The position numbers and the translations under genes were made by a program. From NCBI GenBank assembly GCA_951406725.2, contig OX597814.1, positions 155,744,001-155,808,000 on the forward strand: 64,000 bases of DNA, written 5' to 3'. The DNA is from Octopus vulgaris (Eukaryota). Shown one piece after another: positions 6,781-46,580 of this stretch (position 1 is its first letter; every line of letters starts with the position of its first letter). The notes under the pieces were generated by a model. The model saw only the letters and a program-made list of their open reading frames with translations, was not told the DNA's origin and searched no databases.

Positions 6781-6823
6781 AACGTTTTGAAAATCAGTGT
6801 AAACTGTGAAACCGGATAAAGCT
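6781..6823 (+). ncRNA. Degenerate minimal type I hammerhead motif, U3-A8 type
   Basis: aacgtt-TTGAAAA-tCAGtgtaaaCTGt-GAAA-CCGG-at-aaagct. The cleavage site reads AT rather than TA and stem I pairs 4/6. It lies upstream of (CT)n(TA)n. Confidence 0.45.
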
Positions 6824-7084
6824 TTAAATATATTAATAAAAAAATATATTAAGTATTATCTGTGCATTTGCAACTTCTATTTTTCCTATATTTCTGCCCC
6901 ATCTTCGTTTTCTCTCACTCTCACTCTCACTCTCTCTCTCTCTCTCTCTCTTTCTCTCTCTCTCTCTCTCTCTCTATATATATATATATATATATATATA
7001 TATATATATAAAACGTACTTGGAAGAGGAAACGTGGCGTTCAATCATGTAACATATATATATATATATATATATATATATATAT

Positions 7085-7884
7085 ATATGCGCATATATAC
7101 AAACGTACATATACATACATCTATACGTATATACATGCATATGTGGGCGGCCATCTTTCTTCTCCTAACTGGTGTTTCTTTCTTTTCATCTTTCTCTCTC
7201 TCTTATTCTATTACTTCTTCTCCCATTATGCTATCGTATTGATCTTTCGTTTTTTCTCTCTTTTTCTTCTACTTCCCCTTCTCCCCTTCTGTTTTTCACA
7301 CTTTTCCTATCTCCAATTTTTCCCTCACCTTCACAATTGTCTGCCTGTCACTCTCTCTCCCTCAATCTTCCTCCCTTGCTCAGGTTGCTCCCACGTGACG
7401 ACATGCCATCCTTTTTCTCCTAACTTGTGTTTCTTTCTCTCCGTTGTAGCTAGATCACAGAAGACGTGTTCTTGTCTGTTTCCTGTCCAAGCTTGATTTT
7501 CGCGTTCGCCACCACAACCTCGATAAGGCTTCCTCCTTGTTTTCCCTGTCCTGTTTGTGTTACCAATTTTGACCCTCCGCAAAATACTAAATCTTATTTA
7601 ATTTGCTTTGCGGGATCAACTGTTTTATCGAAAGCGTGTATTGTTGTTAAATACTCGAAATGCGAGAGTAGAAAAACAGCCAACAACTGATGAAGGGTCG
7701 TTATTTGTGTTGTTTGTCTAGTTTTCCACTTGCGTGCTTGTTGTTCGAAACAATAGTTCATATTCCATGTACTCGTACTCGTACTTCGTATTTTTTGTTC
7801 TACACATTTCGTGACGTCCTGTTCCCACATATGCATATATATACGTATAGATGTATGTACATATACGTATGTATATATGCATAT
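7085..7884. repeat. Element bounded by ~60-bp inverted repeats within (TA)n; pyrimidine-rich PLE pLTR-like interior
   Basis: 7085-7147 (..catacatctatacgtatatacatgcatatgtggg) is the reverse complement of 7824-7884 (cccacatatgcatatatatacgtatagatgtatg..). Internal direct repeat ccatc..ttctcctaact.gtgtttctttc at ~7152 and ~7406. Confidence 0.6.
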
Positions 7885-8500
7885 GTATGTCTGTATACAT
7901 ATATATTTATATATATATATATATATATATATATATATATATATATATATATATATATGTTTGTGTGTGTGTATATATACAAAAGGAAAGTGGGTGAATG
8001 GGAGTAAAAACACAGAGAGATCGTGTGTGTGTGAGAGAGAAGTGAGTAAACATGAAAAATGTATGTCAAGAGATGATAAGATATTCAGTAGCTGCCTGTC
8101 ACTGGGAAGTGCAGATAATGTCAGGAAAAATCAGAGAGGAATTTAGAGATAGGATGAAAATATTCAGTTAGAACTAGTGAGAGCAACTCAACAAGTACAT
8201 ACAGGGAAAGTGTGTCATGGTGTGGGTTTGCTTGAGTTTTGGTAAGTCGACAATTTTATTACGAATTCGATAAATTTCGGCAATAAAATCTGTCGACAAA
8301 CAGAAACTTTTATAACTCCTATGTTATATGTATTTATAATATATATATATATATATATATATATATATATATATATATATATTGTTATATTTCGGAATGG
8401 TCATATTGCCAGTTTAGCCAATAAAAACACACGCACTATATATTTGGTGTTATTTTGCTTCAGTGTTATTTATTTTTTACATTAATCTTAATCTTATTTC

Positions 8501-42375: not shown

Positions 42376-42699
42376 TTTAAAAAAAATTTTTTTTTAATTA
42401 TTATTATTATTATTATTATTATTATTATTATTATTATTATTATTATTATAATTAATATTATTATCATTATTATTATTATTATTATTATTAATATTATTAT
42501 TATTATTATTATTATTATTATTATTATTATTATTATTATTAATATTATTATTATTATTATTATTATTATTGTTATCATTATTATTATTATTATTATTATT
42601 ATTATTATTATTATTATTATTATTATTATAATTGTTGTTGTTGTTGTTGTTGTTATTATTATTATTTATTTATTTATTTATTCATTTATTTATTTTCCC

Positions 42700-44365
42700 T
42701 TTATCACAGGTTTTGTCGGAGCTCCTGGAGTCTTGAATGGTTTGCGGGCTTACTACCTGCAGCCTACAGTACTATGTTATTCTTCCTTTTCAGTTATCTA
42801 ATACTTCCTTGATTATTCTGGCTGTACCAAGGAGGGAAATCTTTTGTAACAGTTCTACTGGGCACTCTATTCCAATTTCCTTTAAATTCCTTTTGATGCG
42901 TTCAGATTCTGTTACCAAGCACTCAACAATAATTGGAACTATCTTCACCTTCCTCATTTTCTATTATCTATTTATCTTTACGCCTTCCTTCTTGACTATT
43001 TGTGGGTGAAAGGAGCATGCAACGTCAAATATGTAGCATGTGTAGTGCACCTTCTCTACCACCACTAGGTTTGATCTGTAACACTCTAGCACCTGATCTG
43101 TTTTGATTGAGAAATCCCGGAGGATTTTGCTAGTCTCTACCACTCTCTGCGGTTTGTGCTTATACCACGTCTTGCCTCTCCCTCGCCCCCACGTTTCGCA
43201 CAGTTTACTATGTAGTATTTTCAGTACCGGGTCGTGTTTCCACAACATGTAGGGCATTCGCTCGTGATATATGGAATGGTTTCATCTACTGTATTGCAGA
43301 TACAGGCAAAGCAGAGGCACTTGCTCATTCATCAGCTTGACCTCCCAGTTCGTGGCCAAAGCTTGGTCCTGCGCTGCCAGTATAGTACTCTTGGTCTTCT
43401 TTTTATGTTCCTTTCATCAGCCATTCACACCTTTTTTTCCAGCATCATCTATTGTGGCTACATGGGATTAATTTTCTTTTGATATTATCTTTCTCTAAGA
43501 GTGTCACCTGAGTACAGATCCACTTACCATTTCTTCATGCTAAAGCTAAGTTAATTATCTTATGTTGTCTGCTATACTGAATATTTTCAAACATTCACTT
43601 ATCCATGAGTTTGATATCATGTCATTGGCTTACCTATATCCTATCCATGCTATTGTTAGATTTTTCTTTCTGGTTTTTACTTTATTTAGAACTGCTTTGT
43701 CTATGTATAATAGATCTTGCATTCCTTTAGCCTTCTTCCTGCAACAATTCTGTTCTTCTGGCAGCGAATTCTGGTGCTCGTAATTCTTTTTGGAAGAATT
43801 CTTTTCAACAGCTTCTACACTAATAATAAGCAAGTAATCGGGCTATATTTGCTAGCTGTTTTAACCTTGATCTTGTCTTTCATAATGAGTATTGTCTTCC
43901 CTCTAGTCATCCAGTCAGGTATTATTCCTCCATTCTGGGCACTTCCAATTTCGTATTTTCCCTAACATTTTACTCATTAATGCACTAGTTAATCTTAGAT
44001 CTGGTTGTTCCTCATTCACTATTTCTTCTCTCACTTTAACCATACTGCATATCCATTATGATTTACTGGTTTGTCCCAAATATTACCCCACAAATTTCTA
44101 GCTGCTGCATTAGGCTTCCTATTTTCAGTACTTCGTTCTCCACTATTTATTTGGTTATAAAATCTCCTGTGGTCTGTCTTAAATAATCTATTCCGTTGAT
44201 ACTGATTTATTCTTTACTGATATCTGGAGAGCTTGCCTGTTATTGCTATAATACGCTATTTCAACGCTTCTATTACTGTCCCAAATCCTTTCTCTTTGCC
44301 TAAGTATGTATTCTCAGGGGAAGATTTGTATCTCGTGTTTCCTAACTTGTTCAGTTTCCAGGCTT
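42700..44365 (-). mobile_element. Decayed R4/Dong LINE (RT + CCHC + RLE fragments)
   Basis: LPEEQNCCRKKAKGMQDLLYIDKAV..LTIAWIGY (DY-type RT motif), KHDPV..LHSKLC..WYKHKP..ILRDFSIKTD. (TAA)n at the 3' end. Confidence 0.85.
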
Positions 44366-45947
44366 AGACATTAGAGTGGTACTTCCTTAGACTTGCATCA
44401 AAGGTGAACTATGACATTGTGCGTCTTCCAGACACATAATGGTAAGGAAATTTACACATCATCCAAAGTTATAATTAACACAACGTTAAACATTTATAAA
44501 TCTTTGCTACCTCAATATTATATTTGTGTACTATACCAATTCATTTGCTAGGTAAAACATTAAATTTGCTGTGAACAGTTTAGAATAGCAGTTTGTAACG
44601 TGGGGGAAAATGTAGAAAAAAAGGAAAAGATCCGGGTGAACAAACTTAGCAAAATCACTGGTTTATAGATTTGTATGCACATGTGAGCGTGTGTACAAGA
44701 GAGAGAGAGAGAGAGAGAGAGAGAGAGATAGAGACAGAGACAGAGACATATACAGAGAGAGTGGGGGAGAGAGAGGAAGAGAAAGAAAGGGAGAGAGAGC
44801 AAGAGAGAAGATTGTATGTGTGAATACTGTGCAGACGAGAAAGGAAAACAACATATTTGACAGTCAAAAATATCTTAACACATCGAAAATCACATAAAAA
44901 ACATGAATCATAAGATTTATAGCAACTATTGTGATATAAATTTATTTACGCAAGTTATTCTTATAGTGCTGGCTCTTATTTCTATGGATAATCTATAGAA
45001 ATAATCTTAAAATAGAATTAACAGTTCCGTTAACACACAGTTGGACAACATCTTGACTTAATACATCTATGACACTCTTAGTAGTGTACAGTGTTAGCAA
45101 CACGAAATATTGTTGCCTTCCCAGCAATTAATATATGTACACATTTCCGGGAATCTGTTTAATATGCAAATTGGTCTTTCCGATTATGTTACACCATTAA
45201 ATCTAGTGGGTATTTAAACAATGTGTTCCTTGTTCATGCATAGTTAATGCATTGGCAGTAGTGTTGATGAAGGTTAATTATTCCCGAAATATGTATATAC
45301 AGGCATTACCTACTTTTCCATCTTGGATCGCATTTTTTATATAGACATATAGATGTGTTTGTTAATAAAACTTCGTAACTTAAGTGTTGATTCTGTATTC
45401 TACAGAAAATCTATAGGGAAAAATCTTAAAACTATGAGTAAAATGTGAATAAAAGCTGATTCGTTAAGACATCTCTCACAGAGCTGATTATTCGTATTTC
45501 ATAACTATCCGCTGCTATTTCGGTTACAGAGAGAAATACTTAACTGCGAATGTGGCCTTGCAGAAAAAAACATTTCCTCAATGTAATTAACTAACATTTC
45601 CCTAAACTGTAGTACTGGATAAAACTGCAATGGGATGAGAGAAAACCGTTTATTGTAGTACATGGAATGTATCCATTTTCCAACCCAAAGGAGATTAATT
45701 GAGCCGTTAACATAACTGTATCATTCACTCAATTTATATTTTAATTTGCAGTGAATAATTATAATTATTTCCATTTATAAGAAAAAATATGGAAGTGAGT
45801 AATGTTGGTGAAATACTCCTGACGATTGCACACCACGAACTGGAGTTTCGAGACATTTGACAAATCTATATCTAATTTTGAGGAGCGACGACGGCGGTAG
45901 AAATAATCTTGTTTATATATATATATATATATATATATATATATATA

Positions 45948-46580
45948 TGAGAAAATTAAAATGTAACGAAGGAAATGAACACTAGGTATAAAAGCAATGA
46001 CGTTTCATGGAATCAAAGATATATACATACAAATAGATGATTTGAGGCGGAATTAAGAAGTATAAAATCATTATCATGAGTTGATATAGAAAGCCATACC
46101 GGTTTTATCATCGCTTTTCACTGACTTTGAATCAACCCCGATTTCGAATCGGTGTTCGGTCTAATAGTACCTGAGCGACAAGTGTGCATGCAAAGGAGAT
46201 AAACAGCTCTGAAAGTGATGCATTTTGGTTAATATAATTAAAAGAGTATGAATGGTATATGGGATGTATTAGGATTAGTTGAATTATTGGTATTAGGAAG
46301 GTTAGTAGTGTCCCGTACTAAGTTGTGTATTCATGTTAAGCTGTGATTAATATTTATTAATGAAAGTTACCTCTTTATTTAGGCTTTGCTGCACTGGGGT
46401 GTCCTGATAACATTGATAAAAAGGGAACATTTTATATATTGACTCACAACAATGATTTTTATACTTCTTAATTCCAACACAAATCATTTATTTGTAAGTA
46501 TATATCTTTGATTTTATTAAAAAAGAAGCCTTTACTTTTATACCTAATGTGTATTTTCTCTGTTCTTTTTTTTACGTTTC
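45948..46580. repeat. Diverged inverted repeat (~45950-46090 vs ~46430-46580), decayed inverted pLTR-like pair
   Basis: aatcaaagatatatac..gaattaagaagtataaaatcatt vs aatgatttttatacttcttaattc..gtatatatctttgatt. Next to (TA)n, with a degenerate HHR at 46090-46128 (-). Confidence 0.65.

What the first reader, a model, noticed from the sequence alone, without database searches (positions are those of the whole stretch)
6781..46128. Recurrent minimal hammerheads with a compensatory U3-A8 core (TTGANAA...GAAA-CCGG-TA) in unrelated (TA)n-associated elements
Seen: motifs at 22580-22619(-), 10622-10666(+) with its mirror 8731-8775(-), 6781-6823(+) and a degenerate 46090-46128(-). They share TTGANAA, GAAA and a palindromic CCGG stem III (the 46090 copy reads GTGAAAA and AAAA), while stems I/II and flanks differ completely. 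Known: HHR C3 pairs with G8, U3-A8 is the compensatory variant, and PLE minimal HHRs with palindromic stem III are thought to act as dimers. Inference: an AT-targeting PLE lineage here has fixed the variant core. Standard CTGANGA searches would miss it. The shared CCGG could let transcripts of different families trans-dimerise and cleave each other.
Basis: partly seen in the sequence, partly recalled or inferred. Interest (0 to 1): 0.75.

Follow-up and report, generated by a model that had tools for sequence, protein, structure and literature searches.

The report
Penelope hammerheads swap one core pair
These are tail ends of four related Penelope-type jumping genes carrying a small, likely self-cutting RNA motif of an already described kind; across the lineage one core base pair has changed among all four standard pairs and a wobble, and family-specific outer stems are predicted to stop distant families from cutting each other.

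Summary
The five motifs are at the stated coordinates and beat chance (4 hits vs 0.04 in shuffles; 6,766 exact genome hits vs 45 controls). They are minimal type I hammerheads at the 3' ends of four families of one Neptune-like Penelope radiation, so the elements are related, not unrelated. U3-A8 in Penelope hammerheads is published (Schistosoma, PMC4209133), and this scan noted it several times elsewhere in this genome. Corrections: the 46090 family is G3-C8, not decayed U3-A8; the 6781 family cuts at GUU and this copy has lost U16.1. U3-A8 dominates the CCGG branch (canonical C3-G8: 27 vs 15 controls) but is not fixed: sister families carry A3-U8, G3-C8 and U3-G8, and a GCGC-palindrome branch includes C3-G8. 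The pair holds in 17 of 17 hand-picked family representatives. Cross-family cleavage is not supported: in a double hammerhead stem I forms between the two RNAs, and among the window's families it gives 0-3 bp against 4-7 bp within a family. Cleavage was not tested. New members of a known kind, with a useful natural covariation series.

The parts
6320..6905 (+). Family A remnant: old 5'-truncated 3' end of a Neptune-like PLE, between (TA)n at 6258-6304 and (TC)n/(TA)n at 6911-7010
   Evidence: 40 of 1156 candidates scored, 79-87% identity; Neptune-like ORF upstream in relatives such as L066 and L067
6781..6823 (+). Hammerhead A: U3-A8 core at 6787-6793, stem II CAGU/ACUG with a GUAA loop above a U-U base; family site GUU; this copy has U16.1>A and is likely dead
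8650..9579 (-). Family B copy, left arm of an inverted insertion, ending in a ~40-nt tail absent from the right arm, then (TA)n at 8609-8649
8731..8775 (-). Hammerhead B (left): U3-A8, stem I 6 bp, ACCGGU stem III, predicted cut after 8737
9821..10705 (+). Family B copy, right arm, ending in (TA)n at 10706-10773; long CA-rich 3' region
   Evidence: Neptune-like EN end upstream in relative L082
10622..10666 (+). Hammerhead B (right): identical to the left copy, predicted cut after 10660
22756..23646 (-). Family C ORF remnant (296 aa): RT thumb, CX4CxxC linker, GIY-YIG endonuclease; 5'-truncated at (TA)n 23648-23693; young (98.8-99.9% identical to other copies)
   Evidence: (GIY-YIG E=0.011, below cut-off)
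22580..22619 (-). Hammerhead C: U3-A8, stem I 7 bp, stem II 2 bp with G10.1-C11.1, ACCGGU; about 140 nt after the ORF stop; predicted cut between 22587 and 22586
45950..46400 (-). Family D remnant: old 3' end next to (TA)n at 45914-45948
   Evidence: 40 of 498 candidates scored, 78-84%; Neptune-like ORF upstream in L043 and L044
46090..46128 (-). Hammerhead D: family core is G3-C8; this copy has C8>A, C11.1>U and G12>A and is likely dead
46431..46591 (+). Inverted short partial copy of family D, starting downstream of the hammerhead

Best explanation
The motifs are minimal type I hammerhead folds in the 3' ends (pseudo-LTRs) of four families of one Neptune-like Penelope radiation, and they likely cut only as strand-swapped dimers of two copies from the same or a closely related family. 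Shown: position behind an RT-linker-GIY-YIG ORF, thousands of copies, covariation of stem I, of the 3-8 pair and of the stem III palindrome, and (TA)n neighbours. Inferred: a tandem (pLTR-ORF-pLTR) transcript brings two copies together; ACCGGU pairs with ACCGGU and each 5' arm pairs with the other copy's 3' arm; both ends are cut slowly to release unit-length RNA. Selection keeps a pair at 3-8 rather than particular bases; U-A is the commonest state, and stem I works as a family-specific key. The window copies are truncated debris: 6781 and 46090 carry inactivating changes, the B pair would fold back on itself, and 22580 is intact but single.
For: Counts vs controls. ORF architecture: RVT_1 plus C-terminal GIY-YIG in L072 and L077, linker motif, upstream and downstream hammerheads around one ORF in L076. 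Family alignment: 85.6% of cells paired, 0 of 500 shuffles as high, slid controls 33-46%; 3-8 pair 17 of 17 (UA 9, AU 3, CG 2, GC 2, UG 1); palindrome CCGG 13, GCGC 4. Mismatched V3-A8 is at control level (312 vs 346). Trees place A with B, C with G and I, D with H and K, which implies several double changes at 3-8. Homodimers of C and D cofold with both stems I formed between strands. Literature: U3-A8 PLE hammerheads and weak dimer-dependent cleavage (PMC4209133); U3-A8 active in vitro (PMC3088659); C3G/G8C partly rescues a PLE hammerhead (PMC11167929).
Against: No cleavage or expression data: no RNA holder on record. Single motifs fold no better than shuffles (z -0.17 to 0.45). Homodimer MFEs of A and B are not the hammerhead fold. 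Family F has only 3 contiguous stem I pairs, M has 2, and the young family G has a U-G pair plus a one-base stem I slip. Within old families the motif is about as diverged as its flanks (A core 0.96 vs flanks 0.92-0.94; D 0.91 vs 0.92-0.93). A tandem repeat class carries U3-U8. In a Poseidon element the hammerhead was dispensable for insertion in vitro and no reads ended at its site (PMC11167929). The representatives were hand-picked, partly for good stems, and are related.
Confidence: 0.8

Rival explanations
1. One reading: shared CCGG lets transcripts of different families dimerise and cleave each other.
For: ACCGGU duplex is -8.3 kcal/mol and every window pair cofolds through it. 12 of 210 cross-family arm pairs reach -3 kcal/mol or better, among C/G/I, E/F and D/H. 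An F and a G hammerhead lie 96 nt apart on one strand in L076.
Against: Among window families cross stem I is 0-3 bp and no heterodimer forms a complete core. F and G arms give 0-2 bp. The GCGC branch cannot pair with CCGG (-0.4 kcal/mol). At most it would be non-productive pairing.
Confidence: 0.08
2. The fold is kept as a structural or protein-binding element (RNP assembly, 3'-end definition, splicing neighbour), with little or no cleavage in vivo.
For: Slower core pairs are tolerated, stems II are as short as 1-2 bp, family G is young despite two deviations. Hammerhead mutants did not affect insertion in vitro (PMC11167929). Families E, F and O have a pyrimidine tract and CAG next to the core.
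Against: U4, G5, A6, A9, G12-A15.1 and U16.1 are invariant in 17 of 17 representatives (partly by search design), and a paired 3-8 is the signature of the active fold.
Confidence: 0.2
3. Chance AT-rich matches.
For: The genome is AT-rich and single motifs are weak folders.
Against: 6,766 vs 45; fixed position behind PLE ORFs; covariation.
Confidence: 0.01

Closest known systems
Minimal hammerheads of metazoan PLEs, including the U3-A8 variant of Schistosoma mansoni Cercyon (about 1,300 hits) and the palindromic-helix-III variants of flies, mosquitoes, rotifers and shrimp (Cervera & De la Pena 2014, PMC4209133)
   Same: Type I fold in pLTRs, palindromic stem III, high between-family variability, mostly single truncated copies, U3-A8 core; U3-G8 also appears in their Saccoglossus row.
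   Different: Here stem III is a 6-nt ACCGGU or AGCGCU, stem II is often 1-5 bp, U3-A8 is the majority state of a whole radiation, and A3-U8 and G3-C8 families occur (not in the part of their alignment that I read).
Neptune-clade PLEs (as described in Craig et al. 2021, PMC8557442)
   Same: RT, CX2-5CxxC linker, C-terminal GIY-YIG, microsatellite bias, inverted truncated copies, optional 30-40 bp tail.
   Different: Clade name not tested against named references; Nematis shares the linker. The choice of Neptune over Nematis rests on recalled motif shape and only 21-24% identity to a Nematis-like ORF.
Newt, axolotl and ASBVd double hammerheads (Forster 1988, recalled; PMC7229834 and PMC6155905 passages)
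   Same: Weak monomer helix III with a palindromic loop; U-U mismatch at the base of helix II as in HHR_Amex2 (families A and B).
   Different: Those sit in short tandem non-coding repeats or viroids; these sit behind a coding retrotransposon ORF.

Membership tests
PLE minimal type I hammerhead | Core N3-UGA-N-N8-A ... GAAA ... UH with a paired 3-8 | tested here: met
   Met for 8731, 10622, 22580 and at family level for A and D; not met in the window copies 6781 and 46090
PLE minimal type I hammerhead | Stem I closing the junction, with covariation | tested here: met
   77% of cells paired, 7 of 7 pairs with a change on both sides; weak in F, M and G
PLE minimal type I hammerhead | Stem II, often with G10.1-C11.1 | tested here: inconclusive
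   2 bp in C, about 1 bp in D, 4-5 bp above a U-U base in A and B; read by eye and not counted
PLE minimal type I hammerhead | Palindromic stem III / loop 3 | tested here: met
   ACCGGU 13 and AGCGCU 4 of 17; these two make up most SSSS hits
PLE minimal type I hammerhead | Located in the pLTR / 3' end of a PLE | tested here: met
   C directly in the window; A and D through relatives; B through 1 of 6 loci with a contiguous EN end
PLE minimal type I hammerhead | Self-cleavage, dimer-dependent | not testable with these tools
   No assay; no RNA run on record
Neptune-clade PLE | Single ORF with RT and C-terminal GIY-YIG | tested here: met
   L072: RVT_1 E=2.9e-08, GIY-YIG E=1.5e-4 at 688-775
Neptune-clade PLE | CX2-5CxxC linker before the endonuclease | tested here: met
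   CX4CxxC in intact rows including the window ORF
Neptune-clade PLE | Tandem pLTR, inverted truncated copies, one-sided tail | tested here: met
   L076 tandem, L071-L075 inverted; window B pair with a one-sided tail
Neptune-clade PLE | RT phylogeny with named Neptune references | not tested
   No named references in hand; trees contain only sequences from this genome
Naiad PLE | N-terminal endonuclease | tested here: not met
   EN is C-terminal
Non-LTR retrozyme | Non-coding tandem monomers of 150-450 bp | tested here: not met
   No tandem array at the motifs; ORFs upstream

The most novel reading that the evidence does not exclude
One Penelope radiation in one genome has walked the hammerhead's tertiary 3-8 pair through C-G, U-G, U-A, A-U and G-C, with the wobble intermediate preserved, while stem I diverged into family-specific keys. 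That would show selection for the catalytic fold in living master elements and self/non-self discrimination between co-resident families, with CCGG-only heterodimers acting as inhibitors rather than partners.
Probability: 0.3. Interest if true: 0.55.

Novelty: new member of a known kind. Interest (0 to 1): 0.3.

Why it matters
What PLE hammerheads do is open: they cleave poorly in vitro and were dispensable for insertion in the one reconstituted system (PMC11167929). A radiation with young, near-intact families and five natural states of the 3-8 pair is a ready test set for whether catalysis is selected and whether dimers are family-specific. It also shows that CUGANGA-only descriptors miss at least 6,766 motifs in this genome, which bears on reports of hammerhead absence made with that core (for example the cuganga core search in PMC8557442).

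Tried and rejected
Rfam: no hammerhead among the 150 of 250 rows shown for the window, nor at E<=10 on two motif regions. RNA evidence: no RNA holder listed; contigs from guessed-RNA runs span the hammerhead and show no splice joint at the CAG before the core, which is uninformative. Lunse et al. 2017 on PLE hammerhead dimers was not held and may already describe other 3-8 pairs or heterodimers; supplement file 1 of PMC4209133 could not be searched. Paper searches for the pair variants and for heterodimers and for octopus PLE hammerheads found no report of this series; the library is incomplete. Idea that C3-G8 is absent from the whole radiation: rejected, it occurs in the GCGC branch (those families were placed by palindrome and flank likeness, not by protein). 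Idea that the motifs belong to Naiads or retrozymes: rejected. Non-canonical cores with a CG loop showed no excess over control (6,661 vs 8,010), and the pooled R3-Y8 pattern had a high control (648 vs 609), so A3-U8 rests on listed families, not on a count. The ATGAATA-GCATATG family was dropped because its stem I does not pair. An IQ-TREE run timed out and FastTree was used; 10 of 23 rows were left out of the long-region tree for low coverage.
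Full report
Observation. All five motifs are at the stated places. The pattern TTGANAA-N5-30-GAAACCGG occurs 4 times in the window against a mean of 0.04 in 100 shuffles. A scan that asks for a Watson-Crick 3-8 core, a palindromic loop 3 and at least 4 bp of stem I gives 4 hits (8731, 10622, 22580 and a canonical motif at 17834) against 0.03 in 200 shuffles. 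In the 2.8-Gb genome the exact pattern with GAAACCGGTA has 6,766 hits against 45 controls. 8731 and 10622 are the two arms of one inverted insertion (585 nt at 98%), so the window holds four insertions, not five.

Corrections. Relatives of 46090 read G3 in 14 of 14 and C8 in 11 of 14 (7 lie on one contig); the genome has 147 exact G3-C8/CCGG hits against 30 controls. The window copy has C8>A and a decayed CpG, so it is a dead G3-C8 motif, not a degenerate U3-A8 one. Relatives of 6781 keep U3-A8 in 15 of 16 aligned pieces and U16.1 in 14 of 16, with a GUU site; the window copy has A at 16.1.

What carries them. The 22580 motif lies about 140 nt behind the stop of a 296-aa ORF remnant with RT thumb, CX4CxxC linker and GIY-YIG end, 98.8-99.9% identical to other copies. 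The same kind of ORF lies upstream in relatives of 6781 and 46090 and, in 1 of 6 loci, contiguous with the 10622 family. [quoted passage not shown] Proteins of families A-D are 41-69% identical to each other (B is only 67 residues). Tandem and inverted arrangements and a one-sided tail match PLE anatomy (PMC8557442 passages). 68 of 81 CCGG motifs have (TA)5+ within 250 nt downstream, against 16% and 28% of random positions; the same paper links such bias to the Neptune linker. The clade name Neptune was not tested against named references.

The 3-8 pair. With CCGG, U3-A8 has 6,766 hits, C3-G8 27 against 15 controls, V3-A8 312 against 346 and U3-B8 330 against 65, including a young U3-G8 family. 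In the first 100 of 648 R3-Y8 rows I count by eye 64 A-U, 24 G-C, 4 G-U and 8 A-C (its control is high, 609). A second palindrome, GCGC, has 3,167 hits against 73, sits behind related ORFs in 2 of 10 fetched loci, and includes U3-A8, U3-G8 and C3-G8 copies (20 loci chosen mostly for G8 or U8). On 17 hand-picked family representatives 85.6% of cells pair, 0 of 500 shuffles reach that, slid controls give 33-46%, and 3-8 pairs in 17 of 17 (UA 9, AU 3, CG 2, GC 2, UG 1). These rows are related and were found by patterns, so this is not a probability. Trees group A with B, C with G and I, and D with H and K, with the GCGC family outside. That implies U-A at the base of the CCGG branch, a change to purine-3/pyrimidine-8 in D/H/K, A-U/G-C exchange within it, and possibly a second change to A-U in family O, whose placement rests on weak alignments. 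So the variant is dominant, not fixed. Canonical C3-G8 motifs with a 2-nt loop also persist in another class (4,447 against 1,446), one of them in the window.

Mechanism. As a monomer, ACCGGU gives one A-U pair with a tetraloop, and single motifs fold no better than shuffles. In the double hammerhead (Forster 1988, recalled; described in PMC4209133 and PMC6155905) the palindromes pair between two copies. It follows from the strand order, my inference, that each core takes its 5' arm, core and GAAA from one copy and its cleavage site and 3' arm from the other, so stem I is intermolecular. Families C and D cofold that way as homodimers; A and B do not at the MFE. Among the four window families own stem I is 4-7 bp (-4.5 to -10.3 kcal/mol) and cross stem I is 0-3 bp (0 to -1.3); over 15 families 12 of 210 cross pairs reach -3 or better, all among C/G/I, E/F and D/H. 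No window heterodimer has a complete core. Shared CCGG therefore allows pairing but not cutting between distant families. The likeliest setting is a tandem transcript with two copies of one family, as in L076. Whether this matters in vivo is open: PLE hammerheads cleave weakly even as dimers (PMC4209133), and a Poseidon hammerhead was dispensable for insertion in vitro (PMC11167929).

Against my reading. There is no cleavage or expression evidence here. Families F, M and G have poor stems I. Inserted copies decay about as fast in the motif as in flanks, so selection is visible only between families. A tandem class with U3-U8 exists.

Literature seen. PMC4209133: parts 1-2 of 4 of the text and part 2 of 3 of supplement file 2. 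bioRxiv 10.64898/2026.07.22.740005: parts 1-2 of 5. PMC11167929: part 1 of 4 and passages. Passages only: PMC8557442, PMC6765202, PMC3884650, PMC7229834, PMC3088659, PMC6155905, PMC6962438. Lunse 2017 was not readable. U3-A8 is published both generally (PMC3088659) and in PLEs (PMC4209133). Eight earlier notes of this scan report U3-A8 hammerheads elsewhere in this genome; I treated them as leads.

Verdict. Real, well supported, and of a known kind. The added value is the family-level map: five states of the 3-8 pair in one radiation and a stem I argument against cross-family cleavage. Interest 0.3.

Noticed in passing
window 17834-17868 (+): Canonical C3-G8 minimal hammerhead with a 2-nt CG loop, from an abundant class. 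Copies in the window, L149 and L092 appear to begin about 80-87 nt upstream of the core; in L092 an endonuclease-like frame runs on the opposite strand from there. Carrier clade unresolved.
   Followed up: partly
window 18420-21165 (+): Decayed PLE-like RT and endonuclease fragments of another type (RVT_1 E=1.7e-09); no hammerhead recognised.
   Followed up: no
L076:6759 and 6855 (-): A family G element sits directly behind a family F 3' end, placing two different hammerheads 96 nt apart on one strand; their stems I do not match. A natural test case for heterodimers.
   Followed up: partly
L077:6938 (+), L076, L078: Young family G has U3-G8 and lacks one A of stem I relative to family C (97% protein identity), yet has many near-identical copies. 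Its long N-terminal region is in separate frames in L076.
   Followed up: partly
L161, L162, L163: Tandem arrays of 545-560 bp with a very small hammerhead-like motif carrying U3-U8 (A3-U8 in L163) and a CG loop; retrozyme-like.
   Followed up: no
L071:5246, L004:1530, L173:3591: Families E, F and O have a pyrimidine tract and CAG at or next to the core, like a 3' splice site, recalling the D. virilis Penelope intron (PMC4209133). No joint seen in contigs of family F.
   Followed up: partly
L149:137-3574: Inverted pair of a long-ORF PLE of another clade (Nematis-like by recalled motif), used as outgroup; no hammerhead found at its ends by my patterns.
   Followed up: no
window 14777-15546: Two tandem copies of a 384-bp unit at 99%, with a TTGAAAA...GAAA match that lacks a palindromic loop.
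   Followed up: no
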